In this document: positions 10,275-44,690 of the stretch, one piece after another
How positions within the stretch are numbered: position 1 is the first letter of the stretch
Layout of the letters: each line of letters starts with the position of its first letter
The notes under the pieces: model-generated
What the model was told of the DNA's origin: nothing
The model's database searches: none
Seen by the model: only the letters and a program-made list of their open reading frames with translations
Made by a program: the position numbers and the translations under genes
Source of the DNA: a virus
Reading direction: 5' to 3' (one strand)
UHGV virus genome: UHGV-0248979
Length of the DNA stretch: 64,000 nt

Positions 10275-10345
10275 AATTCACTCCTAAAGAATGTCTCACG
10301 TAGATAATATCTGTCTGACTTCTTTTTGAAATTGAGGTAGTAAGA

Positions 10346-10810
10346 ATGGCTGACGAAGAAGTGAAATATCAGGCGTTTGATGGAGATGTGGACGACGAAG
10401 AATCGCTTCTCCGCCAAACGCAACAAGCCCGTGTACGGATTGTGAACCTCATCTTAGACGATCCACAAGCACACAAAGACTTGAAAACGGTAGACCGTCT
10501 AGGGTCTTTGCTTAACGACGTTGATAAACAAATCATTTCCAAACGTCGTGTCGCCGCTGCACAGAAAAACAGCGAAGCTAACCAAGATTTGGCGAATGCA
10601 CTTAATAGCATCCTCATGCAACGTGGTAATATCAAAATACGACGTCATGATGAGGAAATCGAAGAAACCCAGGGCTACCAGCCCCCCGTTCCTGCTATTC
10701 CCAATGTTGAGGTAACAGAAGGGGAGCTGGCACCAGTAGGTGAACAAATCGATGTTAAGTCCATTATGATGGCGGCGTTTGCACGTCCTGAACAGGACGA
10801 GCAAGACTAA
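10346..10810 (+). CDS. acidic hypothetical protein (154 aa)
   Basis: Lone plus-strand ORF in minus block; D/E-rich N- and C-termini; SD GAGG upstream. Confidence 0.5.
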   Translation: MADEEVKYQAFDGDVDDEESLLRQTQQARVRIVNLILDDPQAHKDLKTVDRLGSLLNDVDKQIISKRRVAAAQKNSEANQDLANALNSILMQRGNIKIRRHDEEIEETQGYQPPVPAIPNVEVTEGELAPVGEQIDVKSIMMAAFARPEQDEQD

Positions 10811-11486
10811 ATAAAGCAGCATCCCGTGGGTCGACACCGACCCACTCTGCCATAAACCGGATATGTTCCTTAAACGGGTTAACGCCGTCTTGTTTGATTT
10901 GTTCAACCAACACGCCGGTCAATTCTGGTGTGAGCATGGCAGGGTGTGTGATGGTAAAGCTTGGAATCGGTTTTTTCAAGTGCGAAGCGTTAAGCTTAAT
11001 CCACTCGAACCAATCGTACATTATCCAGCAATCCCACGCCAATGATAATCTCCCCGGTGTGAGGTCTTCTAACGACCAAGACACCAATTCGACTTGTACG
11101 TTATTGTAATACATCCGAAACAGATTCAAAAAGGCTTGAAGTTCTTCGCCTGTTAAATCCGTATAAGGCCATGTATTGATGGTCAGAGTAGGTTTTTCAA
11201 TTGGCGAATGCATTTCGATTTCAAGCATCATACACTCGAATTCGTTTTTCATCGTTGCCAATAATTCAGTAGGCTGCGCATTAATCAAAGCGCGCTTATC
11301 CCGCTTCCGCCACTCTTCATCCCATTTTTCAAACCCGAGTACACCCGCCCATGCTTCTGTATAGCGACGCCGATAAACATCGTAGTCTAGTAAGGCTAAG
11401 CTTTCAGGCTTAATGGCTTTTACCCAACCTAAACGCGTATCAAATAACGTATCAATATCGATTAAGAAACGTCGAGATAATCTCAT
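10764..11486 (-). CDS. hypothetical protein (240 aa)
   Basis: ORF; 3' end convergently overlaps the plus-strand gene. Confidence 0.45.
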   Translation of the reverse strand: MRLSRRFLIDIDTLFDTRLGWVKAIKPESLALLDYDVYRRRYTEAWAGVLGFEKWDEEWRKRDKRALINAQPTELLATMKNEFECMMLEIEMHSPIEKPTLTINTWPYTDLTGEELQAFLNLFRMYYNNVQVELVSWSLEDLTPGRLSLAWDCWIMYDWFEWIKLNASHLKKPIPSFTITHPAMLTPELTGVLVEQIKQDGVNPFKEHIRFMAEWVGVDPRDAALFSLARPVQDVQTPPS

Positions 11487-12151
11487 GACGGATGGCCTAT
11501 GTTGTTACCGATATGCATCGCTTTGAGGTACGCTGACCACGTCCGTGTTGCTTTAGAACTCGTTCGCTCAGCTCCAGGCAAATCGATACGTCCTTTACCG
11601 GTTTGGCGCAGCGACTGATAGAAAGCACGTTGTAGTGCGTCGTTACCACCACGCGCCCACAAGAACTCTTTCAGTGTCCAGTCGTGACCATCGGAATACA
11701 TGATGTATGCTTCTGGGAAGGAGACCCCGGATGCTTTGGAAGGACCGACAACTTGACCGGAGAGTTTATCGCGAACTTTGTCGTTCTTCGCAACCGCCAT
11801 TTTCTTCTCTTGCATCTGCGTCTGACGACGGACAGGCAAGCGTAAGACCAAGTGAGGGTAACGAGTACGGTGATAAACACCTGTTTTTGGTTCTGTTAGC
11901 CACAACCGTTGCTCCAGGTTTACCCCTAGGATTTTGCACACCTCGATATTGCGCAGGTGGTCAATTTCGACTTTACTTCCCACCGGGTTGTAAATAGGTA
12001 AACCGTTACGAAGTCGGTTAAACTGTTCGTCGGTCATTCGTGCGAAGGCTTTCTTCGCGGCTTCGGCATTAATGCCAGAAGGGTCTACCAACTTTAAGAT
12101 TTGTAAGGCGTAGGCTTCCGCCTTTTTACGCCGCGCTGGTTCGAGTTTCAT
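11483..12151 (-). CDS. hypothetical protein (222 aa)
   Basis: ORF. Confidence 0.5.
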   Translation of the reverse strand: MKLEPARRKKAEAYALQILKLVDPSGINAEAAKKAFARMTDEQFNRLRNGLPIYNPVGSKVEIDHLRNIEVCKILGVNLEQRLWLTEPKTGVYHRTRYPHLVLRLPVRRQTQMQEKKMAVAKNDKVRDKLSGQVVGPSKASGVSFPEAYIMYSDGHDWTLKEFLWARGGNDALQRAFYQSLRQTGKGRIDLPGAERTSSKATRTWSAYLKAMHIGNNIGHPS

Positions 12152-18108: not shown

Positions 18109-18651
18109 TTATACTCCTTTAGGTTGTCCGTATTTTGACGATAGGTAGATGAGTTCAGCATGGCAGATTTTCTCAACTAACCCGAGTGTCTCAAGGAAAA
18201 TATCCCGGATACGGGACATCGTTTCGTTGGTAAGAATATCGCTCCAACATGTTGTGTCTATTATATCCGTCGTTGAAGATTGGCGCTGCAATATTGCGAC
18301 ATACACTTCGTCGAGGCTATCTGGTGCATTATTCTGTAAGTAATGGGCGGCATGTAGAAAGGCTTTCTCAAGAATCAGCTGAATATCCGTATCGGGATCA
18401 GTTACCCGTACTAAATGCGGGTATGTCATAGCCGAACTGATTTTTATCACTAACTGCTCAACGAGGTTATTCACCATCGCTTCTGAATCCAGGATAGTAA
18501 TATCAGCTCCATCGTGTTCTTCAGAAATCTTATTCTCATGCACTGCTATCGCATCGTGTAATTCAAACGCAACGCGACTTCGCATCTCACTTAACACTTT
18601 GTTTAATTTGTCCCGTGACTCGCTGAGTGAGAAATCGATAAGTATTTTCAT
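18109..18651 (-). CDS. hypothetical protein (180 aa)
   Basis: ORF. Confidence 0.5.
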   Translation of the reverse strand: MKILIDFSLSESRDKLNKVLSEMRSRVAFELHDAIAVHENKISEEHDGADITILDSEAMVNNLVEQLVIKISSAMTYPHLVRVTDPDTDIQLILEKAFLHAAHYLQNNAPDSLDEVYVAILQRQSSTTDIIDTTCWSDILTNETMSRIRDIFLETLGLVEKICHAELIYLSSKYGQPKGV

Positions 18652-19394
18652 TATACGTACTCCTGATAAATTGGCCGACCCCGATCTTCTCGAATCTGGC
18701 AGTATGTTACAACAATACCGTTAGGGATTTGTGCGCCGCTGTCTTCAAGGTAAATAACGCCCGTAGCTTCACAGAGATAAAACGACCACAATCGTGAGAT
18801 ACCAAGCCGTGCGTTCTCGTAGTGACTGAATGGCCAGAAACCACAGTGAATCTCATCATAGTCTCCCCGTTCTATCCCGTAAGCAATCATTTCTTTTTCC
18901 CACAACGTACATTCAGCGTCGTAAGTCGAAAACCAGAAACCAACGAGATTCTTTGTCCGCTTAACGTTCATTAAGTCGTTATAAATGGGAAAGAGTGCTT
19001 TATTGAAATTTTCTAACATCTCTGGAGAGAATAGAAAATTCATGTAGTATTCTAGCCATTGATAAACGGCTTCCCAGACATCTTCAGAAGAGAAATGTTC
19101 GAATACGGCGTCATCGCAATCGTAGTTATCGAAGATCCCTGAGAGATCTATTTCGACGACGCCGCGAAGGTCAAAGTTTCTGTTGGTATTGACAGCGTCA
19201 ATAACCTCAGCGATGAGACGAGTAAAGACGATTGTGCAGGCGGTTTGTGCGGTATAAAAGAATTCTCCTTGTACGGTTGACCACTTCGGGTCCTTCAAAT
19301 GTTCATTGAAGTATTGTGGCCAAATTTTATAAAAGATTCCCTCGAACAACGAGGGATTGATACGTTGTAATTGAGGGACATAAACTTTTAGCAT
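18651..19394 (-). CDS. hypothetical protein (247 aa)
   Basis: ORF. Confidence 0.5.
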   Translation of the reverse strand: MLKVYVPQLQRINPSLFEGIFYKIWPQYFNEHLKDPKWSTVQGEFFYTAQTACTIVFTRLIAEVIDAVNTNRNFDLRGVVEIDLSGIFDNYDCDDAVFEHFSSEDVWEAVYQWLEYYMNFLFSPEMLENFNKALFPIYNDLMNVKRTKNLVGFWFSTYDAECTLWEKEMIAYGIERGDYDEIHCGFWPFSHYENARLGISRLWSFYLCEATGVIYLEDSGAQIPNGIVVTYCQIREDRGRPIYQEYV

Positions 19395-19430
19395 TCTAAT
19401 AACTCCAATGGTGTTACACCTGGATAATAT

Positions 19431-20099
19431 CTATCTAAGAATATTTTTAATGAAAAAAGGATCGGCTGTAAACTCCTTCACTTGTGAGTCATAACCCGAA
19501 TGTATTTGATCGCTACTGAGCAAATACTGGTCTAGGTCGTGCGGAAGAATCCAAGAATCACCTTGCTTAAAAATACCATAATCTGCTGTTCCTGCGGAAA
19601 AAATGATTTCCTCTGGAAACGAATAGACACGGCGTAAGGCAAGATCGGATGGCTTTAACACGATTAATCGAACGGGATGTTGACTGACTGCCTCTTTAAT
19701 AAACTGTTCACGATTAAACCAAATTATTTTTTCGGGGTAAGTTTCGAATTCAGCCCATGCCCGCGTGATAACTAATTTGGAAATCTTTCTCAATTCTTCA
19801 GAACGCTCTGCGTAGCCGATGCACTCCTTGCGTACTTCATGATTTTCTATCGATGTTGTGAATTTTTGGAATAGGTGTTGTTGGAAAAAGCCGTTCTCCG
19901 GGATATCACAACCCGCGTTGTATAGTGCAATGATCTCCCACAACAACGAAAGAGAAAACACAAATGCTAACTTTTCCACAACTTCCCAATCTTCGGAGTA
20001 AGGGGCTTTAAAGCCCCAATACTGCCGTGCGTTATACATAAAGTGAGTTTGTAAAAACCGAGGGGCTTTTGACAAGACCTCACTATAAACGATCAGCAT
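19431..20099 (-). CDS. hypothetical protein (222 aa)
   Basis: ORF. Confidence 0.5.
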   Translation of the reverse strand: MLIVYSEVLSKAPRFLQTHFMYNARQYWGFKAPYSEDWEVVEKLAFVFSLSLLWEIIALYNAGCDIPENGFFQQHLFQKFTTSIENHEVRKECIGYAERSEELRKISKLVITRAWAEFETYPEKIIWFNREQFIKEAVSQHPVRLIVLKPSDLALRRVYSFPEEIIFSAGTADYGIFKQGDSWILPHDLDQYLLSSDQIHSGYDSQVKEFTADPFFIKNILR

Positions 20100-27624: not shown

Positions 27625-28134
27625 TTAGAAGAACGGCCGATTTGGAATGACAGCGTACTCTAAAATGAACATGTGCTCTGGGGCGTCTTCTTTACGCCAG
27701 ACTTTGTGTGTTAACACAAGTTTTTCCAGAATCGTTAGAAAACTACGCTGGCAGTATGTGTTTTCGCCAAGTAGCAGTTTCTGAAGTTCTACAGTAGCGT
27801 CCATATACGCCTGTTTAAAGACTAGGCTACGGTTATACTGTCCGGTAAAATTCCAAAGCAAGACTTTCCCTTCTTCGGTTTCTTTTACCGTTGGACGTAA
27901 ACCACAAATCCACAGCAAGGCAAGGTTGACGTTCCAGTCAAACTCTAAACCTTCCTCTTCGTCATCACCGAATGCTGTAGGTAAAGCATCGTAAAATTCG
28001 TGTTTCTCTGCGAATTCTTCATCCGATTTAATCTCGTCTTCGATGCTGCTTCGGACGATACCGTAAATGTCTTTCGCGGTTAGTTGTGCGGCTTTTGTAA
28101 TGCCTTTATACCAATCGGTTACAACGATGCTCAA
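27625..28134 (-). CDS. hypothetical protein (169 aa)
   Basis: ORF; start overlaps upstream stop. Confidence 0.5.
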   Translation of the reverse strand: MSIVVTDWYKGITKAAQLTAKDIYGIVRSSIEDEIKSDEEFAEKHEFYDALPTAFGDDEEEGLEFDWNVNLALLWICGLRPTVKETEEGKVLLWNFTGQYNRSLVFKQAYMDATVELQKLLLGENTYCQRSFLTILEKLVLTHKVWRKEDAPEHMFILEYAVIPNRPFF

Positions 28135-28829
28135 AGGGTAACTCCTCTATTGATTGGAAAACTCGTGTTTATCGTATCCCAAATTTTACTAACTTCCGCC
28201 AATTGAATCTGACGTGATGTTTTCTTCGCAAACGCAAGCTGACGTGGGGCCGAGCCCACAACAACAGGCACATCGATTTTCGCGCTATAGAACGCGGCAT
28301 CTTTCATAAAGCCTGCCATTTCTCGTTGTGCTGCTCGAGATTTGCTTTTGATTCGCGTGTGAGCGCCACTTTCACCCCAGTGGTAAGCTAACGCAACTTC
28401 AGCCATGGTGGGCTTGCGTTTGAGTCGTTTGGTTAACCCCTTCTCAAGATGTTTAACATACGCGGTAGCCAGCAAAACAGCGTTACGCGGATTATACAAA
28501 TCGGCGTTCTGACTAAGACCTAATTCTTTTCCATAAAGCTTTAGCAGACTACGCTTGGTACTTGGAAGCATCTGTACCAGGCTGTGTGCCCGTGAGCTTT
28601 TGTTGTAAGCCTTGGGATCAAAACGTGATTCGCGATAAATCAGCGTAATCATCAGCTTAGGATCAACGCCTTGCTTTCGTGAGATTTCCACAATTAACGG
28701 ACTGACTTTTTCGAACCGATGTTGGATTTGTGTAAACTCACGCTGATGTTTAGTTTGTGGCGTTGACGTTGACGCCTGTGCGTTAAACGCGAAAAGTGTT
28801 ACCAGTAAAAGAAAGAAGATACGAAACAT
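28131..28829 (-). CDS. secreted lytic transglycosylase (SLT domain) with signal peptide (232 aa)
   Basis: Signal peptide MFRIFFLLLVTLFAFNAQAS; SLT-like YRESRFDPKAYNKSSRAHSLVQMLPST; start moved to ATG with SD GGAGA. Confidence 0.65.
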   Translation of the reverse strand: MFRIFFLLLVTLFAFNAQASTSTPQTKHQREFTQIQHRFEKVSPLIVEISRKQGVDPKLMITLIYRESRFDPKAYNKSSRAHSLVQMLPSTKRSLLKLYGKELGLSQNADLYNPRNAVLLATAYVKHLEKGLTKRLKRKPTMAEVALAYHWGESGAHTRIKSKSRAAQREMAGFMKDAAFYSAKIDVPVVVGSAPRQLAFAKKTSRQIQLAEVSKIWDTINTSFPINRGVTL

Positions 28830-28929
28830 TTTGTTTCTCCAGTTGGATTTATACATTTCCGTATTCCGTAAGACGAAATGACGGCGCGGACAGCTAATAC
28901 TCCTTTGTTGTGTGCCCTAATGATAATAT

Positions 28930-29490
28930 CTATTTAAAAGAGTTTGGAATTAATGACTCTGCTTCTCGGTACAGCTTATCGGGTAAGTATAACGTGTAGT
29001 GTTGCCTCCTCGGTTCAAGTTTTTTGTAAAGCCACAAGAAGATTTCTTGCCTTTCCCAGGAATCTAACCACCCATTTGCCATTCCCAGTGGAGGGATAGC
29101 AACGCTGGTATCCAGTTCCTCAACACAATCTGCTAATGCGGTAATGCCCGCAGTAACATAAGAAACCTTGGACTTTAAACGCCAATGTGTTTTCGTGGGG
29201 AGCAAGATGCACTTTTCATCAGGGTAAACGTAAACACTTCCAATCTTGATTTCGTCTTCGCGACACCGCTTACGGTAATCTTGATAAAGGTTGGGGTAGC
29301 GTTCACGGCACGCCAGTGCAATACCGCGACCCATTGCTCCTACACAGTTAATGGTAACGACTTTATAGTCTTCGGGCGCATTAAAAAGATCGTTACCAAT
29401 TTTAGATTCTTTACGTACCGTTAACATAACGAATCGGCCATAGTTGATGTGTAGTATTAAAACGTGTACCGCCGATTGATAGCTCGACAA
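28930..29490 (-). CDS. macro domain protein, TARG1/DarG-like (ADP-ribose glycohydrolase family) (up to 186 aa)
   Basis: Motifs TINCVGAMGRGIALACRERYP, LLPTKTHWRLKS, SVAIPPLGMANGWLDSWE match the TARG1-type macro domain pattern; start uncertain (M1 or M22). Confidence 0.55.
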   Translation of the reverse strand: MSSYQSAVHVLILHINYGRFVMLTVRKESKIGNDLFNAPEDYKVVTINCVGAMGRGIALACRERYPNLYQDYRKRCREDEIKIGSVYVYPDEKCILLPTKTHWRLKSKVSYVTAGITALADCVEELDTSVAIPPLGMANGWLDSWERQEIFLWLYKKLEPRRQHYTLYLPDKLYREAESLIPNSFK

Positions 29491-35709: not shown

Positions 35710-36195
35710 TTAGTATTTAGATTGTTCTACGTACTTCTTAACCAGATAACCGAATTCAGCAACGCCGATTTCGCCGAACCAAACCAGATAACCGGGGTCG
35801 ATGTTGTAGTAATAACCGACGAGTTTCTTGGTGTGTGGGTTGTATAGCGTTACGATATATTCCCAGCCACAAGCGTTAGCTTTACAACCACCACTTTCAA
35901 TCCAGATTTTGTTGTTGATATTTACCGGATACATGTTACCGCCAGGGCCATCCATGTAACCTTTAGAGCCGAACATTCCATCCAGTCCCACCGGATCTAG
36001 TGTTTTATCAACAACACCTTTAAATGACTTATCGGTATCGTACAAGTCGTTGATGTTTGGACACGCATTTGGCTGACCTTCCCGAGCGTTCCCATCGCAG
36101 GTAAGCAATTCGTCTACGGAGGCCGCATCTACAGTAGGTGTGGCACCGATAAACAAGAAAACCAGAAAGAACATCAGTGTATGTAAACGTTTCAT
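35710..36195 (-). CDS. secreted small protein with signal peptide (161 aa)
   Basis: Signal MKRLHTLMFFLVFLFIGATPTVDA. Confidence 0.55.
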   Translation of the reverse strand: MKRLHTLMFFLVFLFIGATPTVDAASVDELLTCDGNAREGQPNACPNINDLYDTDKSFKGVVDKTLDPVGLDGMFGSKGYMDGPGGNMYPVNINNKIWIESGGCKANACGWEYIVTLYNPHTKKLVGYYYNIDPGYLVWFGEIGVAEFGYLVKKYVEQSKY

Positions 36196-36213
36196 TGTGA
36201 CTACTCCTTTAGA

Positions 36214-36606
36214 TTATTCAGCAGGACGATTTAAAGTAACACGGCCAATTAATTCGGCGTTATGAAAGAAGTCCACAGCGGTATAGTTACCAACTGATAA
36301 CGGATGTATGCTAACCGACATGACTTTTGGTTGTTCACAGGCGATATCGGTCAAACGTTGGTAGACTTGTGCACGGGTGTCAGCAATGAGTAATCCTGTA
36401 CATGTTTCACCACGTACTAAACGATAAACTTGCAGTTTACCGAAACTGCGCATTAACGTAGGTGTCTCATCCGGGTTGATAATCGGTGAGTCAGGAGCGG
36501 GTTCGTAATGGTTGACATCCGAACCGCCGAAAGCGTAAGTGCCAGTAATGCCGATTGCACAGAAAACAATGATAGTATAAAGTATAGTTCTAATATTCAT
36601 TTTCAC
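36214..36606 (-). CDS. secreted small protein with signal peptide (130 aa)
   Basis: Signal MKMNIRTILYTIIVFCAIGITGTYA. Confidence 0.55.
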   Translation of the reverse strand: MKMNIRTILYTIIVFCAIGITGTYAFGGSDVNHYEPAPDSPIINPDETPTLMRSFGKLQVYRLVRGETCTGLLIADTRAQVYQRLTDIACEQPKVMSVSIHPLSVGNYTAVDFFHNAELIGRVTLNRPAE

Positions 36607-36628
36607 GCACTCTAAAAAAGATTAATAC

Positions 36629-37090
36629 TTATTTGTTAGGACGGGTGTGTCCACAGTTCTGGAAGAAAGTTTCAGATAGACGTTCGCCTTCTACGGTAAA
36701 GTTAGCGGCGTCATTACCATTGATACTCACGCTGAAATTTTTGGCATTACCGATAGCATTAACGAAAGCAACCCAAGCGAGTTCTGCTTTGTCACTACCA
36801 TCCACGGTAGGGATGTTATAGGTTTTGCCGTTTACGACAATATCCATCGTGTTATCTTCAGCGTTAGTTGCACCTACAGGTTCCCCGTAATACCAAACCA
36901 TGCGACCGTAAAATTTGCGATTCGCGGTTTCAGTGTCACAGTTGATAGACAGTCCGTTTCCGGTGGTGTCTTCGATTTCGTAAACTGCCTGACCAGGGTT
37001 CTGTATTTGTTCCCAGCTGTTGATAGCGGCGTGTGCAGTATTGAATCCGAAAGTTAAAATGGTTACTAAGAACGCGATAAAAGTTTTCAT
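36629..37090 (-). CDS. secreted small protein with signal peptide (153 aa)
   Basis: Start moved to ATG with SD AAGGAG giving signal MKTFIAFLVTILTFGFNTAHA. Confidence 0.55.
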   Translation of the reverse strand: MKTFIAFLVTILTFGFNTAHAAINSWEQIQNPGQAVYEIEDTTGNGLSINCDTETANRKFYGRMVWYYGEPVGATNAEDNTMDIVVNGKTYNIPTVDGSDKAELAWVAFVNAIGNAKNFSVSINGNDAANFTVEGERLSETFFQNCGHTRPNK

Positions 37091-37136
37091 TGAAATGCTC
37101 CTTCGGGTTATGGGAAAGTTCCCACAAATCATGAAA

Positions 37137-37508
37137 TTAAATGAGAAAGTGGGCAACTCTTTTAATCTGTCTATAACTATCATCGATACCTCTTATTATT
37201 TCCAGACGTTCTTCTGAAGAAAGGCATTGGTTAATGTCTTTGTCAAGATTGAACAATGTCATGAGTTTTGCAATCGAAACTGCCAGGTTGTCCGATAGCT
37301 CGTTGTTTTTACGCCATTCTTCGTTACGGAAAATACAGATAAGGTCTTTCACCTGGTTTTCAGCGAGCGGTTTGGCTAACTGTGCGTCGCGCTGTTCGAG
37401 AAGGTATGCTTCGTTGGTAAGTAATTGTTTCAGGTCTTCTGGGTAAAGGGCAGCGCGAGTAACGATCAGTAATACAACAAACGGGTCTTTGAACAATTCG
37501 TTTTTCAT
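37137..37508 (-). CDS. hypothetical protein (123 aa)
   Basis: Start moved to ATG with SD AGGAGA. Confidence 0.5.
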   Translation of the reverse strand: MKNELFKDPFVVLLIVTRAALYPEDLKQLLTNEAYLLEQRDAQLAKPLAENQVKDLICIFRNEEWRKNNELSDNLAVSIAKLMTLFNLDKDINQCLSSEERLEIIRGIDDSYRQIKRVAHFLI

Positions 37509-37546
37509 CTTTAGTTCTCCTAAAATGGTTTCGTTAAGTGAGAGTA

Positions 37547-37571
37547 ACTGAACTCTCACCTAAGTAATATA
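37547..37571. promoter_or_regulatory. conserved 25-nt AT-rich element CACCTAAGTAATATATATCTGAAAT (copy 1), promoter-like
   Basis: Near-identical (24/25) to copy at 41946-41970; 39 nt upstream of the minus gene start at 37508. Confidence 0.4.
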
Positions 37572-37612
37572 TATCTGAAATTATTTTTAATGTTGACGAA
37601 CAAAAAATAAAA

Positions 37613-37632
37613 GGTGGGGGTAAACCCCCACC
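37613..37632 (-). terminator. hairpin GGTGGGGG-TAAA-CCCCCACC
   Basis: 8-bp stem, A-run upstream on plus strand. Confidence 0.55.
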
Positions 37633-37636
37633 GACG

Positions 37637-38215
37637 TTATACATCGAACCGATACTGCCGGGAGTTAATGAGGAACTCAGTATTCAGCTCAATCCATTCG
37701 AGTAAATCCCCCAACGGTAATCGGTTTGGGTTTTCTAACTCGATAGATGCAACCGGATAAGAGTTTACTAATTCCGTAATCGCCTCAATGCCCTCTTGCG
37801 TTCCATCGTCTTCTAAGGTGATTGTAAACGGCATATCGGTACGTTCCGCATTAGGATTGTACAAACTGACTTTCGTTGCTTGCACAAACGCAGTCAGGTC
37901 GTCTCGCATAATGCGAATATCTGGCGCTAGAACTACCCAGAGATGTTGCCCTGGCTGGAGTTTACGTTTTGCGTAGTTTACGAAAGGACTTGCCGTCAAG
38001 TTATCTAAACCACAACAGATGTTACGTAAACGAATTCCGCGCGGATCTTTGTAATCCACGTCGAAAATCCCCACAGGTTCATTCGCTGCCCGCTTTATCA
38101 GAAAGGCTAATACCGTGTCCGCTCTTTCTGGTAAGGAAAGCTCTATTCCCTCAAGCTCCCCATCGACGAGATTTTCTAACCAAACGTCTTTTCGCATTTC
38201 TATTAATCGGTACAC
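37637..38215 (-). CDS. hypothetical protein (192 aa)
   Basis: ORF. Confidence 0.5.
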   Translation of the reverse strand: MYRLIEMRKDVWLENLVDGELEGIELSLPERADTVLAFLIKRAANEPVGIFDVDYKDPRGIRLRNICCGLDNLTASPFVNYAKRKLQPGQHLWVVLAPDIRIMRDDLTAFVQATKVSLYNPNAERTDMPFTITLEDDGTQEGIEAITELVNSYPVASIELENPNRLPLGDLLEWIELNTEFLINSRQYRFDV

Positions 38216-38227
38216 GGTTCCACCTCA

Positions 38228-39001
38228 CTAATAATTAAGTTTTACATCGGCAATAAACAGCAACTGTTTACCGTGTTGCTGCACTTCTTTCCAACCTAGT
38301 TTCATAGCAGCGTCAACAACATCTATCATGCTGTAACGAGACATCAACGCGGTTGATTTTGTTCCTGACATTAAGTAAAGCGGCTCGTTGGGGCAACGGT
38401 CGCGTGCATCAGGAAGTTCCCGAGAGACTGCTGAGCCTTCGGGTACGGTAACAACATGAATCACGGTAAATGGTCTTTTGTGGGTTAAATAAATACGAAA
38501 CCCAACGTGTTCAGACTCATGAAAGACTTTCTTTACAACCACATCTTTTAGTGTCGTCTGAACATCAATCCCAGGTAATATCGTGGATTCGCGAGAAACA
38601 AAACAACGACTATTTTCAACCATGGAGAAATAATTACGTATCGGTAAACTGGCGTTATGATCGCGCAGTTTTTTGCTCAGTAGATCGAAGTTCAGTTCTT
38701 TAACTTTCTCTAGCCATTCTTTGGCTTGTTGTATGTAATAACTACCAACGGTGCGATAAGTCAATACCTTGCCTGTGCTTACTTTCCAAAGTTTAACGCT
38801 TAGTGAATTCGGCTTATAGCGACGATACTCACCCCGCGTATAGTTGATGCGCTCGTAACGCTCTACATCGTCAACGGGCGCAGATTCGATCGATTGTAAT
38901 TGCAACGTACGATCTAATCTATCGGCGAATAGTAGTGATGTTAGCGGACCTTCGATCAAATACGGTTCGGTTTTAAAGATATCATCTAGATGGATTTTCA
39001 T
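38228..39001 (-). CDS. hypothetical protein, GW...QLLF C-terminal motif family member 1 (257 aa)
   Basis: C-terminus LGWKEVQQHGKQLLFIADV shared with three neighbours. Confidence 0.55.
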   Translation of the reverse strand: MKIHLDDIFKTEPYLIEGPLTSLLFADRLDRTLQLQSIESAPVDDVERYERINYTRGEYRRYKPNSLSVKLWKVSTGKVLTYRTVGSYYIQQAKEWLEKVKELNFDLLSKKLRDHNASLPIRNYFSMVENSRCFVSRESTILPGIDVQTTLKDVVVKKVFHESEHVGFRIYLTHKRPFTVIHVVTVPEGSAVSRELPDARDRCPNEPLYLMSGTKSTALMSRYSMIDVVDAAMKLGWKEVQQHGKQLLFIADVKLNY

Positions 39002-39022
39002 TTCTATTTCCTTCTTAACAAA

Positions 39023-39041
39023 AGCCGCGACTAAAGCGCGG
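39023..39041 (-). terminator. hairpin GCCGCG...CGCGGC
   Basis: 6-bp GC stem. Confidence 0.35.
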
Positions 39042-39068
39042 CAGTTAGAGAAAGTCTATTTTTACTTA

Positions 39069-40220
39069 TTAGAGGTCAGCAACAAACAACAGCTGGCAGC
39101 CGTACTTTTGTACGTCCGCCCAACCGTAGTCTTTTCCGATTATAGGTAGATGTAAAAAATCCAGCTTCTCGTCTTTCGCTTTTAGTTTCGCCATTAACGT
39201 ATTGGACTCCTCAGCACTGAGCAGTAATGCGGGCTCTTTTTCAGTACGTCCTTCTGCGGTTGGGAAGAAATTGTAATAGCTGCGAGTAGGTAAATCGACA
39301 GAAAAACTACGATTGCCTATTCTGGCGATGAACGCAACTCCTTCACAGTTAGCATCTACACTACACGACCATCCCGCCTCCGTTAAAAGGTCTTTTAACA
39401 GACACCACACTTTAAGTTGGTTCTTAGAAACTGTACGGTAAATAGCAAGATGTTCAGGAAGTAAATGTACGCCCATAACCACGTTTTCAGATTTCTCGTC
39501 AAGCAACTCTGGATGCTGTATCGGGAACAATAATTCAGTGATACCCACGTTATCAATTTTGTTAACAAAATCAGTTAATTCATCTTTTAAGGTACACACG
39601 GATTTTTCTCCTTTGTCTTCAATAATCAGGTGGGGTTCGCCGCTAATTAAAATGTGGTAAACGAGATCGTCAGTAGAACGGTAAGTGAGCTTGATTGCTT
39701 TATCACTTAATATTTCGTAGCGGAAGAAACTTTCGTACCAACTTGAGCCGAAATCGTTTTGTGTGAGTTCCTGCTCAACTTTGATGGTTTTTGCTTCAAA
39801 GCCGATTAACTCGCTTAATAACGCGAGTTCTTGTTTAGTTAAAATAGTTACACCGTGAAAGGGCACTTGTTCAAGCTGAAAACATAACTTAGTGACTTCA
39901 CCATTTGGGAAGACCTTAAACATAATCTTCCGGTTGCTACTCTTTTCCCTAACAACAAGTTTACGGTAATTTAGTCCACAATTTGTGTAAGACGTGAACT
40001 GGTAACCTTCAATTTCTTCATCGAAAGTACAGACATCGACAGGCGCGATAATCTCATTGTATTCACTAAGTACACAGCAGCCCAATTTATAACCAAACAA
40101 CGTATGTTGTAAAAAATAGTCGAGGGTTAAGCTTGGTAGTGGCCAAGCCCGATTATAGCATCTGTCCATCAGTTCTTTTAGGTACTTGGCATGTCTTGGT
40201 TTAGAAATAATATTTCGCAT
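39069..40220 (-). CDS. hypothetical protein, GW...QLLF family member 2 (383 aa)
   Basis: C-terminus YGWADVQKYGCQLLFVADL. Confidence 0.55.
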   Translation of the reverse strand: MRNIISKPRHAKYLKELMDRCYNRAWPLPSLTLDYFLQHTLFGYKLGCCVLSEYNEIIAPVDVCTFDEEIEGYQFTSYTNCGLNYRKLVVREKSSNRKIMFKVFPNGEVTKLCFQLEQVPFHGVTILTKQELALLSELIGFEAKTIKVEQELTQNDFGSSWYESFFRYEILSDKAIKLTYRSTDDLVYHILISGEPHLIIEDKGEKSVCTLKDELTDFVNKIDNVGITELLFPIQHPELLDEKSENVVMGVHLLPEHLAIYRTVSKNQLKVWCLLKDLLTEAGWSCSVDANCEGVAFIARIGNRSFSVDLPTRSYYNFFPTAEGRTEKEPALLLSAEESNTLMAKLKAKDEKLDFLHLPIIGKDYGWADVQKYGCQLLFVADL

Positions 40221-40252
40221 TTTTACTCTCCTTTAGGGGGTTTTTTCGTTAC

Positions 40253-40807
40253 TTAAGCAGGGCAAGCTAAGAACAACAACTGCTGACCGATTTTACGTAC
40301 GGTATACCAACCGTGGGCTTTAGCGACCGCGATCAACGTTTCCCAGTCATCAACATCACATTGCTCGTTCCGAAGTTTTGTAAAGAGTGCTTCGGCTTCG
40401 TCTTGGTTTAATAACTTACCTGGATTATCAGGGGTGGTGCCAGAAGGGGTTGGAAAGAAATCGTATTGACGCGCTAAGAGAAAATCAACCAGATACTTGG
40501 TGTTCTCTTTATAAACCAGCGTGGAAGTCTTCCCTTCGTGGAAGAAGCTGCCTGTTTTCCAAACGCTATCTTTCAGTAAGCTCTGAAGGTAATCTGTAAA
40601 GCCCGTTCTAAATGGGATATGCGTTTTACGCGTGATGTTGCGACGCAGCGGGGTTTCCTCTACAGCTTGTACACTTACCCCTACTATCATCGCACCTGGC
40701 TGGATAATGGTATTGGTCAGTACGGTATAAGGACGGACAAAGAAATGTTCGCCTACGCCTTTTTCAAGGGTTTGGATAATTTCATTTTTCAGTTCAGTTT
40801 GAAACAT
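40253..40807 (-). CDS. hypothetical protein, GW...QLLF family member 3 (184 aa)
   Basis: C-terminus HGWYTVRKIGQQLLFLACPA. Confidence 0.55.
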   Translation of the reverse strand: MFQTELKNEIIQTLEKGVGEHFFVRPYTVLTNTIIQPGAMIVGVSVQAVEETPLRRNITRKTHIPFRTGFTDYLQSLLKDSVWKTGSFFHEGKTSTLVYKENTKYLVDFLLARQYDFFPTPSGTTPDNPGKLLNQDEAEALFTKLRNEQCDVDDWETLIAVAKAHGWYTVRKIGQQLLFLACPA

Positions 40808-40838
40808 GGTATATTCTCCTTTTTTTCGGTTTTCTTAA

Positions 40839-41576
40839 TTACGCGGTTTTAATTAACAGCAGATAGTCCTTCGTAATCTCAGCACAACTCCACCCTCTCA
40901 TCGTGGCGATTTTACGAAGATCAATTTTCTCGTGATATTTCAATAAGGGATCGTCTGAGTTAATCTCAACCAGGTGGGTGGCTTTAGAAATCGTTTCCAC
41001 ATCTGGGATCTGTTTTGCTAAGTCGGATGCAATCAGTTCAATAACGCGGTAACCCTTTAACACAGAAACATAGATGCGCAAACCATATAGCGTGCCCTCG
41101 TCTTCTAATGGACAAAGATCGATGCCGGGTCCAAGCAGTGATAACTCGACGTTATCGGGAAGGTTTTCTGCATTTCGGAGTAACCCTATCCCATTTCTAA
41201 ACAGAGGGAAGTAAGAGAATAGTGGTGGTAAAGCCCAACCGTTCCCAATAAGCACATCATCGATACTAGTAGGCGTGTTCGCAAGAAGACGAATGTGGTC
41301 AGCCACAACTTCAAGTTCGGCATCACTGATCAACTTATAGATTAACATGACACTGGTTTCGGTATTAATAACGAAGAAGACGCGGTTGGCGTAACTGCCT
41401 ATCACGTATTCGTCAATCATACAGTCGATAACGTCAGTGTCTGGATAATCTTCAGGTTTAATTGTTCCAGCATCGATTAACTTAGCAGGTTGCGATTGTT
41501 TTAATAGTTCGTTAACAACAGTAGAAGAAAGTTCTAAACTGGTGTTAGTAAAGATATCGTCTAATAATTCTCTCAT
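40839..41576 (-). CDS. hypothetical protein, divergent GW...LLL family member 4 (245 aa)
   Basis: C-terminus RGWSCAEITKDYLLLIKTA. Confidence 0.5.
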   Translation of the reverse strand: MRELLDDIFTNTSLELSSTVVNELLKQSQPAKLIDAGTIKPEDYPDTDVIDCMIDEYVIGSYANRVFFVINTETSVMLIYKLISDAELEVVADHIRLLANTPTSIDDVLIGNGWALPPLFSYFPLFRNGIGLLRNAENLPDNVELSLLGPGIDLCPLEDEGTLYGLRIYVSVLKGYRVIELIASDLAKQIPDVETISKATHLVEINSDDPLLKYHEKIDLRKIATMRGWSCAEITKDYLLLIKTA

Positions 41577-41945
41577 GATTTACTCGCTAATCTCAATAAA
41601 GGGAAGTCTATTATTATGGATTGTAAAAGAGGTATAAGGAAGTCACTACGTTCCTCTGGGAAGAGTATGTCGGTATACTACGTATACCTCCGCTATTTAT
41701 ATCCGTATACATAATGCCCCCTACCCCCTACCGGTATCCCGAGTAGCAGAATAAAGGGACAGACTGTAAAATTTTAGTACCTGTTATCGGAAGGTACTAA
41801 ATGGAGTGTAGTCTTTAAGCCGTTTGTGCAGCTCATTGAGACTTTCTTTTTTTAGTAGACATGATCTGTCTCCCCAAATGGTTTAATCAATCCGTTTCGA
41901 ATGAAACGTGTCCGTAGGGGCTGAACTGGCACTTCAGTCCCTATT

Positions 41946-41970
41946 CACTTAAGTAATATATATCTGAAAT
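41946..41970 (+). promoter_or_regulatory. conserved 25-nt AT-rich element CACTTAAGTAATATATATCTGAAAT (copy 2), candidate promoter for the virion gene block
   Basis: 26 nt upstream of the ATG at 41996; contains TATATAT -10-like core. Confidence 0.4.
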
Positions 41971-41995
41971 CAATTCCGATCTAAGGAACGTCCCG

Positions 41996-42961
41996 ATGGA
42001 GAAATCCAGTGTTGATTTTTTCTCAATTGGTATCGTCGCGGAAGACAAACCCCGTGGTACAGATCGGGTAAAAGTGATACCAATTGAAACTAATTTTGCT
42101 AACCCTACCGTGGTGCAATCTGTTTCTTCAGCAACTGAAAAGACACATGAAACATCTGGTGCAACAGATAACCTAACCATTAAGACGGGTAACACGATAA
42201 CAGCAAAGTGGTGGAAGTTTAACTCCAACCGAATTAATTCCCCTGACGTTAAACGAGAAGATTACGTTATCTTGTTACGTTTGGGGAAAACCGATATTTA
42301 TTTTTGGATTGATCTGAACTTCGCTAACGTTAAGCGATTAGAGGATGCGGTTTACGCGTGGTCTGCTGACCCTGAAAACCAGATGGCGGATGACCTGTCC
42401 AATGCGTATGTGTTGAATATCTCGACGATTGACAAACATATCACGCTAAGAACAAGTATGGTGAACGGTGAGAAAGCGGCGTGGTTATTTCAGTTTGATA
42501 ATGCAAATGGCACGTGGCAGTGTGTTGACCACAAAGGGAATAAGTATTACATTAACTCGGTGGAAGACGATTTAGGTTTTGAGAATGCGATGCTCTCAAA
42601 AGTGAACATCAACAAAGAAGATGCGTTCATTTATTCAAAGCGTTCTATTAACCTGGAAACGAAAACGATTAATGAAAAATGCGAAGTTCGCAATACGGAA
42701 GCAGCGAAATCCGTTACGTTTAAAACACAAACCTGGTTAACGGAAGCAGGGAGTTCGACAACATTTAAAACGCCGAACTTTAAACAAGAAGGGAATGAAG
42801 CGATGTTCACCGGTAATCTGGAAATCGCTAAGAACTTCAAATACGGTGGTACGGGCAAAGGCGTCGGTGTCTTTACGGTTAAAGATGCGGTTATTTCTGG
42901 CATTACCTTTAGCGTTCACATTCACCAAGGTAAACATGGCCCGACATCACCTCCACAGTAA
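41996..42961 (+). CDS. hypothetical protein, likely virion/baseplate-associated (321 aa)
   Basis: First gene of plus-strand block, SD AAGGA; no motif recognised. Confidence 0.5.
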   Translation: MEKSSVDFFSIGIVAEDKPRGTDRVKVIPIETNFANPTVVQSVSSATEKTHETSGATDNLTIKTGNTITAKWWKFNSNRINSPDVKREDYVILLRLGKTDIYFWIDLNFANVKRLEDAVYAWSADPENQMADDLSNAYVLNISTIDKHITLRTSMVNGEKAAWLFQFDNANGTWQCVDHKGNKYYINSVEDDLGFENAMLSKVNINKEDAFIYSKRSINLETKTINEKCEVRNTEAAKSVTFKTQTWLTEAGSSTTFKTPNFKQEGNEAMFTGNLEIAKNFKYGGTGKGVGVFTVKDAVISGITFSVHIHQGKHGPTSPPQ

Positions 42962-43167
42962 TTCCCCTTTTTCTTACGTTGTTTTTATATATTGTGACCT
43001 GACGTTGGTAAAACTTTTTATCAACACTTTTCTTAAACCCATCGTTTAGTTAAGCAGGCCACTTTTTTCGCGCACTCTACTCCTCCCTACGGGGAGGAGC
43101 TATCTTATGCTTCGGTTGTAACACACGTCGGTCTTAGACCACTAACCTTTTGAAATGGAGAGCTGTT

Positions 43168-43377
43168 ATGTCTATTAAAGAGTTCTCTTCTGCTGAGCAT
43201 ATTCCAGAAGAGTTTAAGAAAATCGGTAACGTTAGCGCTTTCGGCGATACCGTTGATCATGTAACTGGTAAACTGGCTGCTGAAGCCGAAAAAATTGGCG
43301 GCGACGCATTCAAAGTTATCGGTATTTCCGGCAACAACAAACTGCACGGTAACGCGATTGTCTACAAAAAAGACTAA
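43168..43377 (+). CDS. DUF1471 (YdgH/BhsA/McbA-like) domain small protein lacking a signal peptide (69 aa)
   Basis: Pattern EF...G.VS...DTVDHVTGKLAAEAEKIGGDAFKVIGISGNNKLHGNAIVYKK matches the BhsA-family fold signature; SD GGAG. Confidence 0.6.
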   Translation: MSIKEFSSAEHIPEEFKKIGNVSAFGDTVDHVTGKLAAEAEKIGGDAFKVIGISGNNKLHGNAIVYKKD

Positions 43378-43396
43378 GCGAAAAAAAAACGTGCTA

Positions 43397-43421
43397 CTCC
43401 TACCCTCTAAGAGGGTAGGAG
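43397..43421. terminator. bidirectional terminator hairpin CTCCTACCCTC-TAA-GAGGGTAGGAG
   Basis: 11-bp stem; A9 upstream, T7 downstream; between convergent genes. Confidence 0.7.
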
Positions 43422-43427
43422 GTTACT

Positions 43428-44690
43428 TTATTTTTTTCGTGCTCTAAAGCGATGCATTTCTAAATACACTTTTTCCCAGGGACCGAATGGACCAACGATT
43501 GCTTGAGCATCGTTAATCTTCTTCTGATTATACCACCGGGCTTCACGAAAGACGTAGTTTTGACTGTCGAATTCGGTGGTGTTAAATACCCACTCACCTT
43601 CCTCCCACGTAGGCCAATAACCTACCGTCTTTCCAAATCGATTATTTAAGTACCCTAATGGTTTTTCAGAATCAGGATCGGTGGGGTCCTTGAGATAACA
43701 ACGTCCCCAAACTGCGTTATGCGAAACACCCACAACTTCTTCTTCTAAATACGGATTATCTACCGTAAAGATAAAAGAGGATTCGTGCAGTAAAAGCGCT
43801 TTCAGTGTTTCAGGGTTACGAATACGTTGAACGTTGGTAGGCGATGATAAATCCCCCACACCGATGCTATCCCAGTCGTAATAACGTCGGGTCTCCAGAA
43901 CGGTCCGTGCAAGATCAAAATTCGGTAAAGAAATCATGATCGCACGGTCAGAGAAATAACCGTCCGGTGGCAACCAACGTAGCAATCCGCCTATGACGAA
44001 ACCCACGGTTTTCCCCGTAATAGACTCAGGCAGCGATATCATTAACGTGGAGTAATAGTCGCGTGTAGTGTCGAGCTTGTTTAGCGTAAGGTTGGCGATT
44101 GGATAGGTTTTAACATTCCCTAGCTGACCAAAAACCATACAGCCAATATCTGGCGTACATGCTCTCCGTACGATTTTACCGGCCCCAGGCAATCGCACAC
44201 CTACGGTATCCGTCTGGTGTGGTACCCATTGACCGTTAATGTTGTACAGCACACTATTACGGTATTTGTCTTTCCACTTGTCCTCACAAACGACGACAAC
44301 GTCATCAGCATCGTCTAAGCTGAAATCTTGACTGTGATGGTACCCTGGTGGACACAGATATGTTTCGACAGGTACATCGGCATTAATTGATTGGTAATGT
44401 GCCCAACTGAATTCCAGTTTCGGCAATCCGGTCTTTAGAGTGGGAATGACGTTTCCGGCTTTTTCGTTTAACCAATCTTGTAAAGTGTCTGTTCGGTTTT
44501 GTAGTTCGGCAAGATGGTATTGACTGACTAACGTATAGTCTTTACCAAGTGCACTTAAACCGATCTCAAAGGTGTGGTAGTCTGAACACAACGTAGTTAA
44601 AGGTTGCGTGACATCGATGGCTCCCCAGGTACGGGACTCTCGAGAGAAGCCAAAAGCGCTGTCGGGTCGCACTTGATAAGCAGTAGTCAC
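43428..44690 (-). CDS. hypothetical protein (420 aa)
   Basis: Long minus ORF divergent from tail fiber genes. Confidence 0.55.
   Translation of the reverse strand: MTTAYQVRPDSAFGFSRESRTWGAIDVTQPLTTLCSDYHTFEIGLSALGKDYTLVSQYHLAELQNRTDTLQDWLNEKAGNVIPTLKTGLPKLEFSWAHYQSINADVPVETYLCPPGYHHSQDFSLDDADDVVVVCEDKWKDKYRNSVLYNINGQWVPHQTDTVGVRLPGAGKIVRRACTPDIGCMVFGQLGNVKTYPIANLTLNKLDTTRDYYSTLMISLPESITGKTVGFVIGGLLRWLPPDGYFSDRAIMISLPNFDLARTVLETRRYYDWDSIGVGDLSSPTNVQRIRNPETLKALLLHESSFIFTVDNPYLEEEVVGVSHNAVWGRCYLKDPTDPDSEKPLGYLNNRFGKTVGYWPTWEEGEWVFNTTEFDSQNYVFREARWYNQKKINDAQAIVGPFGPWEKVYLEMHRFRARKK

What the first reader, a model, noticed from the sequence alone, without database searches (positions are those of the whole stretch)
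37547..41970. Near-identical 25-nt AT-rich element at two intergenic sites, with a weaker third copy
CACCTAAGTAATATATATCTGAAAT (37547-37571) and CACTTAAGTAATATATATCTGAAAT (41946-41970) differ at one position. Both lie 25-65 nt upstream of a start codon (minus gene at 37508; plus gene at 41996). A looser version (CACGTAGATAATATCTG, about 10297-10313) precedes the plus gene at 10346. The TATATAT core is -10-like and palindromic, so the element may be a phage-specific promoter, perhaps for a phage-encoded transcription factor such as the small sigma-region-4-like protein at 2640-2936.
Basis: seen in the sequence. Interest (0 to 1): 0.5.

Follow-up and report, generated by a model that had tools for sequence, protein, structure and literature searches.

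The report
Jumbo-phage early promoters, read backwards
The repeated AT-rich element is the conserved early promoter of a phiKZ-like giant phage, probably read by the RNA polymerase the virus carries in its particle; it points along the minus strand, so this is a known kind of signal and not a new one.

Summary
The window comes from a giant phage related to Erwinia phage phiEaH2 and Salmonella phage SPN3US.

Read on the minus strand, the element is AAAAATAATTTCAGATATATATTACTTAGGTGAG. This matches, base for base and in spacing, the early promoter of phiKZ-like phages (phiKZ TATATTAC; the 201phi2-1, OBP and N1M2 consensus sequences).

A weight matrix finds five sites in the window, all on the minus strand. 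Each has a positional counterpart in phiEaH2, where all 23 sites lie on the coding strand.

- **Class A** (the two near-identical copies): ATATATATTAC followed by a 5' hairpin and a leader of about 50 nt.
- **Class B** (the "weaker third copy" plus two more): ATAGATATTATC with short leaders.

So "phage-specific promoter" is right. The assumed direction is wrong: copy 2 fires away from the gene at 41996. The link to the small "sigma-like" ORF is unsupported.

It is a new member of a known kind, of low to moderate interest. Side observations: class A cassettes sit at gene insertion/deletion junctions, and a conserved structured non-coding block lies at 41634-41758.

The parts
37553..37594 (-). 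Minus strand: AACATTAAAAATAATTTCAGATATATATTACTTAGGTGAGAG
   Evidence: Weight-matrix score 45.5 bits. The only part of an 8-kb query found by megablast in phiEaH2 (41 nt, 100%) and in SPN3US-like phages (about 86%). Same spacing as phiKZ early promoters.
37603..37632 (-). Intrinsic terminator (GGTGGGGGTTTACCCCCACC plus a T-run) ending the upstream operon, immediately 5' of promoter copy 1
   Evidence: The same terminator-then-promoter arrangement is seen in phiEaH2 and SEGD1. A T-run lies upstream of 30 of 52 class A instances.
37538..37559 (-). 5'-terminal hairpin of the predicted transcript (GTGAGAGT-TCAGTT-ACTCTCAC), starting at the inferred start site
   Evidence: -12.2 kcal/mol, z about -4. 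A hairpin sits at the same position, with different stem sequences, in most of 53 non-redundant class A instances.
37137..37508 (-). First gene driven by copy 1 (123 aa, unknown function, phrog_27024). Together with its leader it is an insertion relative to a close relative
   Evidence: window 37103-37551 is absent from UViG_3300045988_113438, and the breakpoint lies directly after GGTGAGAGTT.
41942..41983 (-). It points away from the baseplate gene at 41996
   Evidence: Score 38.4 bits on the minus strand, below 12 on the plus strand. Conserved in five relatives of the same clade.
41915..41943 (-). Leader hairpin downstream of copy 2 (TAGGGACTGAA-GTGCCAG-TTCAGCCCCTA)
   Evidence: z about -2.6. 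Across six orthologues, 98.5% of cells are paired and 3 pairs show compensatory changes.
41833..41862 (-). Decayed small ORF (MSTKKRKSQ*) with a Shine-Dalgarno sequence GGGGAGA. It is about 30 aa and intact in three relatives, and deleted in one
41634..41758 (-). Conserved, probably structured non-coding block lying within the transcript predicted from copy 2
   Evidence: Only 3-4 variable columns across six clade members. Found by nhmmer in phiEaH2, an Asesino-like contig and SPN3US. Hairpin with compensatory changes. No Rfam match.
40839..41576 (-). First substantial gene downstream of copy 2 (245 aa, no family match)
10293..10334 (-). The plus strand also gives a weak 14.8-bit reading
   Evidence: 35.7 bits. 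Positional counterpart at phiEaH2 116286-116327.
19413..19454 (-). Class B early promoter driving minus gene 18651-19394 (phrog_8219)
   Evidence: 42.4 bits. Positional counterpart at phiEaH2 107591.
28912..28953 (-). Class B early promoter upstream of the transglycosylase gene 28131-28856
   Evidence: 31.7 bits. Positional counterpart at phiEaH2 98711. SLT domain.

Best explanation
The elements are early promoters of a phiKZ-like (SPN3US/phiEaH2-related) giant phage, all oriented on the minus strand. By homology with phiKZ and 201phi2-1, they are read at the start of infection by the multisubunit RNA polymerase packaged in the virion. That enzyme would recognise an A-tract near -30, TTTCAG near -20 and ATAT(A/G)TATTA(C/TC) near -10, and would start at or next to the GTGAG box. 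The two near-identical copies form a sub-class (A) whose transcripts begin with a 5'-terminal hairpin and carry a leader of about 50 nt. The most likely role of the hairpin is to protect the 5' end of the mRNA from decay. The weaker copies (class B) have short, unstructured leaders. Shown here: sequence identity with the known early-promoter family, strict strand bias, conservation of position, terminator-promoter junctions and conservation of the hairpin. Inferred: the start site, early timing, which polymerase reads the sites, and what the hairpin does.
For: The window is collinear with phiEaH2 63.9-125.8 kb in inverted orientation. It encodes a giant-phage RNA polymerase beta-like subunit, and phiEaH2 has several genes annotated as RNA polymerase beta subunit. 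The minus-strand reading matches the published early-promoter consensus sequences of N1M2, OBP, 201phi2-1 and phiKZ (PMC7058600 Table 2). It also matches real phiKZ sites, such as the one upstream of gp054, with identical spacing. The phiKZ and 201phi2-1 motifs were mapped to start sites of early transcripts. The weight matrix gives 5 of 5 window sites on the minus strand and 23 of 23 phiEaH2 sites on the plus strand, against fewer than 0.5 hits of at least 12 bits per shuffled genome; the shuffles shown reach 18 bits, while real sites score 21.9-50.9. All five window sites have positional counterparts in phiEaH2. The 17-mer TTTCAGATATATATTAC occurs 2-5 times in each of many 205-246 kb viral contigs. 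A terminator lies directly upstream of copy 1. Hairpins follow GTGAG with a mean z of -2.2 in 53 instances, and copy 2's hairpin shows compensatory changes. Class B sites fold no better than shuffled sequence.
Against: No transcript data exist for this phage or, in the literature I could search, for the SPN3US/phiEaH2 group. Start site, timing and polymerase are therefore extrapolated from Pseudomonas phages. The virion polymerase assignment is itself an inference in the literature. Only five sites occur in 64 kb, and one (28912-28953) overlaps the 3' end of the upstream ORF. The core resembles a sigma-70 -10 box. The hairpin could do something other than stabilise the mRNA.
Confidence: 0.85

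Rival explanations
1. They are ordinary host sigma-70 promoters: TATATT or TATTAT acts as the -10 box, and the host polymerase transcribes the phage's early genes.
For: The core is 5 of 6 identical to TATAAT. A few relatives have TTGATT or TTGACT 17 nt upstream.
Against: The consensus scan for sigma-70 promoters does not report either element on either strand. The conserved upstream positions are GATTAAAAA and TTTCAG, not TTG; the hexamer at -35 in the family consensus is TATTCT. Conservation runs without a break from about -40 to +5, which is typical of polymerase-specific phage promoters. The homologous phiKZ motif belongs to a transcription programme reported to be independent of the host polymerase.
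Confidence: 0.06
2. They are operators or binding sites for a phage-encoded DNA-binding protein, such as the small helix-turn-helix ORF at 2640-2936 acting as a sigma-like factor.
For: The TATATA core is partly palindromic. ORF 2640-2936 has weak helix-turn-helix similarity.
Against: All Pfam hits for that ORF are below their thresholds, and it has no PHROG match. It has no tblastn match in phiEaH2, whereas the promoters are conserved there. The sites show absolute strand bias and a fixed relation to terminators, hairpins and start codons, which fits a directional promoter and not a symmetric operator.
Confidence: 0.03
3. The near-identity of the two copies reflects a mobile or recombinogenic repeat (a regulatory cassette spread by recombination) more than selection on promoter function alone. 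This can hold together with the promoter explanation.
For: Copy 2 with its hairpin and small ORF is an insertion specific to the window's clade. A one-gene insertion/deletion begins exactly at the 3' edge of copy 1. The 75-nt promoter plus leader is 97% identical to one at another locus that precedes a different gene. Genes downstream of class A sites have no phiEaH2 homologues, while those downstream of class B sites do.
Against: Only two junctions were examined. Orthologues of copy 2 carry ATATATTTTAC instead of ATATATATTAC, so the 24 of 25 identity in this genome is largely convergence on the class consensus. No recombination products have been observed.
Confidence: 0.35

Closest known systems
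Early promoters of phiKZ-like giant phages (phiKZ, 201phi2-1, OBP, N1M2, EL), attributed to the virion RNA polymerase
   Same: Same sequence and spacing: A-tract, TTT(C/G)AGAT, N, TATATTAC or ATATTATY, then YWA.GTGA. Located upstream of operons of small genes of unknown function, in the coding direction. The genome type encodes split beta/beta' polymerase subunits.
   Different: This is a different phage group (enterobacterial SPN3US/phiEaH2 relatives and an uncultured 220-225 kb clade). No start sites have been mapped. There is a clear split into two sub-classes, and class A has a 5' hairpin that the phiKZ sites examined mostly lack.
PeSL cassettes (early promoter plus stem-loop) of T4-like phages (PMC2839356, PMC4122927)
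   Same: Short, highly conserved composite terminator/promoter modules with a stem-loop, repeated across the genome, flanking small non-essential genes and lying at insertion/deletion junctions between close relatives.
   Different: PeSLs contain sigma-70-like promoters, and their stem-loop is the terminator. Here the promoter is of the phage-polymerase type, and the notable stem-loop lies downstream, at the transcript's 5' end. Recombination through these cassettes is inferred from two junctions only.
5'-terminal stabilising stem-loops of bacterial and phage mRNAs, such as the ompA 5' UTR and T7 late transcripts (from general knowledge; not tested here)
   Same: A hairpin begins within 0-2 nt of the inferred start site. 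Its position is conserved while its sequence varies.
   Different: Neither the start site nor any effect on mRNA half-life has been measured. Several hairpins are AU-rich and followed by U residues, so premature termination is an alternative.

Membership tests
phiKZ-like giant-phage early promoter | Match to the family consensus: AT-rich box TATATTAC or ATATTATY near -10, TTTYA(R)(R) near -20, A/T-tract near -30, GTG near the start | tested here: met
   Window copy 1 and the phiKZ gp054 promoter share the TTTnAGATnTATATTACTnAnnTGA spacing exactly.
phiKZ-like giant-phage early promoter | The genome encodes multisubunit (split beta/beta') phage RNA polymerases | tested here: met
   Window 11483-12151 matches phrog_3233, 'RNA polymerase beta subunit', at 6e-93. 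The collinear relative phiEaH2 has several genes annotated as RNA polymerase beta subunit. The full set cannot be checked within the 64-kb window.
phiKZ-like giant-phage early promoter | Over-represented motif, located upstream of operons in the direction of transcription | tested here: met
   5 of 5 sites (window) and 23 of 23 (phiEaH2) are on the coding strand, against fewer than 0.5 hits of at least 12 bits per shuffle. All five are conserved in position.
phiKZ-like giant-phage early promoter | Transcript 5' ends about 10 nt downstream of the AT-rich box, appearing early and independent of the host polymerase | not testable with these tools
   This needs RNA 5' end mapping during infection, with and without rifampicin.
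Host sigma-70 promoter | -35 TTGACA-like and -10 TATAAT-like hexamers, 16-18 nt apart | tested here: not met
   Neither element is reported by the consensus scan of 36500-42500. The family consensus has TATTCT at the -35 position.
PeSL regulatory cassette of T4-like phages | Composite of a terminator stem-loop and a sigma-70-like early promoter | tested here: not met
   A terminator lies upstream of copy 1, but none was found for copy 2, and the promoter is not sigma-70-like.
PeSL regulatory cassette of T4-like phages | Lies at insertion, deletion or replacement junctions between closely related genomes | tested here: met
   Two junctions. The sample is small.
Sigma factor (for ORF 2640-2936) | A Pfam sigma-70 region 2 or region 4 domain above the gathering threshold | tested here: not met
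   Sigma70_r4 scores 17.0 bits against 24.1, and HTH_3 18.5 against 23. There is no region 2 hit.

The most novel reading that the evidence does not exclude
In SPN3US/phiEaH2-like giant phages the early promoters have split into two functional sub-classes. Class A modules (terminator, promoter, 5' hairpin leader) would act as portable expression cassettes: they bring in and swap accessory early genes by recombination, a polymerase-independent analogue of the T4 PeSL cassettes. Their hairpins would set mRNA stability. In addition, the copy 2 transcript in this clade runs into a conserved structured RNA (41634-41758) that lies beside the baseplate gene in several genera and may be an undescribed regulatory RNA or leader.
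Probability: 0.3. Interest if true: 0.5.

Novelty: new member of a known kind. Interest (0 to 1): 0.27.

Why it matters
The result gives the early promoter set, its direction and the likely early operon starts for a 64-kb stretch of an uncultured giant phage. It also corrects the direction in which copy 2 and the strong reading of the third copy fire, and therefore which genes they serve. It shows that the phiKZ early-promoter grammar holds almost unchanged in enterobacterial giant phages. This is useful for annotation, for predicting early (host-takeover) genes and for designing expression cassettes. The class A/B split and the insertion/deletion junctions give a testable lead on how giant phages acquire accessory early genes.

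Tried and rejected
- **tRNA/tmRNA and Rfam:** no tRNA or tmRNA and nothing at Rfam gathering thresholds. A permissive Rfam scan of 41500-42000 gave only a chance-level hit, 6A RNA at E 3.6.
- **Host promoter reading:** the sigma-70 consensus scan did not pick up the elements.
- **Sigma-like ORF 2640-2936:** only sub-threshold helix-turn-helix hits.
- **Plus-strand reading of the class A copies:** no plus-strand weight-matrix hit of at least 12 bits at 37557 or 41946.
- **Literature:** full-text searches for ATATATTAC with 'jumbo', and for GATATTATC, found no description of this motif in SPN3US-like phages. The OBP genome paper (PMC3264338) is not held. No supplement with phiKZ start-site tables was available.
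- **The 41634-41758 block:** blastn against the phage collection found nothing; only nhmmer against fetched loci found distant copies. MAFFT alignments of the block are not structure-aware, and single-sequence folds gave z-scores from +0.3 to -2.9, most of them weak. I did not build a covariance model, so its structure remains provisional.
- **Possible upstream CTG start for the transglycosylase gene:** out of frame.
- **Other:** two script calls failed for technical reasons.
Full report
**1. The observation**

The two 25-mers exist. CACTTAAGTAATATATATCTGAAAT lies at 41946-41970. They differ at one base, and no match appears in 100 dinucleotide-preserving shuffles even with three mismatches allowed. 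The looser copy at 10297-10313 is also there.

**2. What the window is**

Low-stringency blastn places the window among giant phages of the SPN3US/phiEaH2 group. Structural genes are about 74% identical to Erwinia phage phiEaH2 and about 69% identical to Salmonella phage SPN3US.

A tblastn map shows the window is collinear, in inverted orientation, with phiEaH2 63.9-125.8 kb. Closer relatives are uncultured 220-225 kb viral contigs, whose baseplate protein is 93-100% identical.

The window encodes a giant-phage RNA polymerase beta-like subunit at 11483-12151 (phrog_3233, 6e-93). phiEaH2 has several genes annotated as RNA polymerase beta subunit. This is the split multisubunit polymerase system typical of phiKZ-like phages (PMC7598289).

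**3. The key result: conservation and polarity**

With megablast, the only part of an 8-kb query (36000-44000) that matched any of 50,697 phage records was the element at 37551-37610 itself. The match is 41 nt at 100% in phiEaH2 and 57-60 nt at about 86% in SPN3US-like phages. In those phages it sits in the same setting: gene, intrinsic terminator, element, small gene, all on one strand.

In the window that strand is the minus strand, where the element reads AAAAATAATTTCAGATATATATTACTTAGGTGAGAG. This agrees with the published predicted early promoters of phiKZ-related phages (PMC7058600 Table 2):

| Phage | Published consensus |
|---|---|
| N1M2 | TBYAWWWWWTTTCARRYAKATATTATYWAAGTGWA |
| OBP | similar to N1M2 |
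| 201phi2-1 | ...TTTRARR_BTATATTACDWHDGTG |
| phiKZ | TATATTAC |

I also checked phiKZ directly. The site upstream of gp054 reads AAAAAAATTTGAGATTTATATTACTAAATTGA, with exactly the same spacing as the window element. In phiKZ and 201phi2-1 this motif lies about 10 nt upstream of the mapped 5' ends of early transcripts, with conserved -10, -20 and -30 regions (PMC8244752, PMC11512511, PMC7598289).

**4. Family size, strand bias and synteny**

I built a 42-nt weight matrix from phiEaH2 sites.

- **Window:** five sites, all on the minus strand: 37594-37553 (45.5 bits), 19454-19413 (42.4), 41983-41942 (38.4), 10334-10293 (35.7) and 28953-28912 (31.7).
- **phiEaH2:** 23 sites, all on the plus strand, which is that phage's main coding strand.
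- **Shuffled controls:** fewer than 0.5 hits of at least 12 bits per genome.

Each window site precedes a minus-strand gene and has a positional counterpart in phiEaH2 (116286, 107591, 98711, 87432 and 84317). None occurs in the plus-strand block of virion genes at 41996-63219. Neither reader element is reported as a sigma-70-type promoter, and a strong terminator (37632-37613, minus strand) lies just upstream of copy 1.

**5. Two sub-classes**

The two near-identical copies belong to class A: TTTCAGATATATATTACYTAGGTGAG. In 53 non-redundant instances collected from viral contigs, the 34 nt starting at GTGAG fold with a mean z of -2.2, and 64% have z below -1.5. The hairpins start within 0-2 nt of GTGAG but have many different stem sequences.

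The hairpin after copy 2 (41915-41943) is 98.5% paired across six orthologues, with three pairs changed in a compensatory way. Class A leaders have a median length of about 49 nt. Of 52 instances, 35% carry a [CT]GACYAT box (background 1.5%) and 58% have a terminator-like T-run upstream.

Class B sites have ...GATAGATATTATCTAnGTGA. They fold no better than shuffled sequence, and their Shine-Dalgarno sequence and start codon follow within about 25-36 nt. The phiKZ sites examined mostly lack the hairpin.

**6. Mechanism**

*Shown.* The sequences are members of the phiKZ-type early promoter family. They are directional, conserved in position, and often placed directly after terminators.

*Inferred.* Transcription starts at or beside GTGAG and happens early. 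The enzyme is the virion-packaged multisubunit polymerase. The class A hairpin forms at the 5' end of the RNA and protects it from 5'-end-dependent decay. An alternative role for the hairpin is premature termination that yields short RNAs, since several hairpins are followed by U residues.

**7.

"Phage-specific promoter" is right. The direction assumed for copy 2 and for the third copy is not. Copy 2 fires away from the baseplate gene at 41996. The third copy's strong reading serves 9726-10274.

The third site is quasi-palindromic and gives a weak plus-strand score of 14.8 bits about 25 nt before the ATG at 10346. A minor divergent activity there cannot be excluded.

The proposed factor, ORF 2640-2936, has only sub-threshold helix-turn-helix hits and no phiEaH2 homologue.

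**8. What lies downstream of copy 2**

No ORF of 33 aa or more lies between 41942 and 41577. Alignment with five clade members shows the following order:

1. promoter;
2. hairpin;
3. a small ORF, intact at about 30 aa in three relatives, frameshifted to 9 aa in the window (41862-41833) and deleted in one relative;
4. a 125-nt block (41758-41634) with only 3-4 variable columns;
5. gene 41576-40839.

Diverged copies of the block occur beside the baseplate gene in phiEaH2 (83869-83991), an Asesino-like contig, SPN3US and other contigs. Its features are:

- a pyrimidine-rich arm pairing with GGGGGnnGGGGG through many G-U pairs, which makes the structure strand-specific;
- a CGGAGG-hairpin-CCGAC motif whose stem changes in a compensatory way (TATAC/GTATA, TGAC/GTCA, TATCC/GGATA);
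- no Rfam match.

In some lineages a terminator-like hairpin and then a class A promoter follow the block, so it may be a separate small RNA. Elsewhere it abuts a start codon, as a leader would. Single-sequence folding statistics are mostly weak, with z from +0.3 to -2.9, and I did not make a structure-aware alignment. This remains a lead only.

**9. Cassettes at insertion/deletion junctions**

Compared with phiEaH2, SPN3US and other relatives, the window's clade has about 210-240 nt inserted between the baseplate start codon and the conserved block. The insert holds the class A promoter, the hairpin and the small ORF. A remnant of the old baseplate upstream region (TTCCTCGGTAATCATAGTATTAC) is still visible in three relatives.

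At copy 1, window 37103-37551 (leader plus the 123-aa gene) is absent from UViG_3300045988_113438. The breakpoint lies directly after GGTGAGAGTT. The 75-nt promoter and leader is 97% identical to a cassette at another locus that precedes a different gene.

Genes downstream of the class A sites have no phiEaH2 homologues, whereas those downstream of class B sites do. [quoted passage not shown] Here the promoter is not sigma-70-like, and only two junctions were examined.

**10. Verdict**

The finding is a real and non-random feature. It belongs to a known kind: the early promoter of phiKZ-like giant phages. These are new members in an uncultured enterobacterial-type giant phage.

- **Confidence:** 0.85 that they are minus-strand promoters read by a phage polymerase.
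- **Interest:** low to moderate (0.27).
- **Less ordinary aspects, given about 0.3 probability as a coherent story:** the class A/B split with a 5' hairpin, the cassette-like behaviour at gene insertion/deletion junctions, and the conserved structured block at 41634-41758.

Noticed in passing
window 41634-41758 (minus-strand sense): A 125-nt non-coding block with only 3-4 variable columns across six clade members. It is recognisably conserved beside the baseplate gene in phiEaH2, an Asesino-like contig, SPN3US and other contigs. Features: G-U-rich long stem, and a CGGAGG-hairpin-CCGAC motif with compensatory stem changes. No Rfam match. It could be an undescribed small RNA or a regulatory leader.
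   Followed up: partly
window 41833-41862 (minus strand); L105-L107: A small ORF downstream of promoter copy 2 is about 30 aa in three relatives, frameshifted to 9 aa (MSTKKRKSQ*) in the window and its closest relative, and deleted in UViG_3300029126. The gene appears to be decaying.
   Followed up: partly
window 37103-37551 compared with L028 2790-2822: A one-gene insertion/deletion (123-aa gene plus its hairpin leader) whose breakpoint lies exactly at the 3' edge of promoter copy 1. The promoter plus leader (37515-37589) is 97% identical to a cassette at another locus (L044) that precedes a different gene.
   Followed up: yes
L108-L116, about 17-20 nt upstream of the baseplate-gene start codons (plus-strand sense of the window): A conserved (A)GTATGA lies just upstream of the baseplate gene in phiEaH2, SPN3US and other relatives. 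It resembles the phiKZ late-promoter TATG start motif. In the window's clade this region is displaced by the inserted cassette, and in the window itself it has mutated to GTTATCGG, so the late promoter of gene 41996 is unclear.
   Followed up: no
window 10280-10321 (plus strand), overlapping the class B site at 10293-10334: This class B site is quasi-palindromic and gives a weak plus-strand score of 14.8 bits about 25 nt upstream of the divergent gene at 10346. The same is seen at phiEaH2 116301-116326. It may be a bidirectional promoter.
   Followed up: partly
phiEaH2 NC_019929.1 115984-116877 (gp142): The annotated 297-aa ORF spans an early promoter (116286-116327). According to tblastn it corresponds to two divergent genes in the window (9726-10274 minus, 10346-10810 plus), so it is probably misannotated in the reference.
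   Followed up: partly
class A leaders, e.g. window 37519-37527 (AACCATTTT) and loci L009-L091: A [CT]GACYAT box lies between the 5' hairpin and the Shine-Dalgarno sequence in 18 of 52 class A leaders (background 1.5%). Its function is unknown; it might be a translational or protein-binding element.
   Followed up: partly
L011, L018, L055 (about 224-230 kb viral contigs): A class A promoter is followed by a conserved, hairpin-rich stretch (GAACCATGTGTTC...CCCCnnTTTCCTTTAGTGAA...GGGG) with no Shine-Dalgarno sequence or ATG nearby. It may be a promoter-driven non-coding RNA in another giant-phage lineage.
   Followed up: no
window 2640-2936 (minus strand): A 98-aa ORF with a C-terminal helix-turn-helix signal only (HTH_3, Sigma70_r4 and HTH_24, all below threshold). 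It has no PHROG family and no phiEaH2 homologue.
   Followed up: yes
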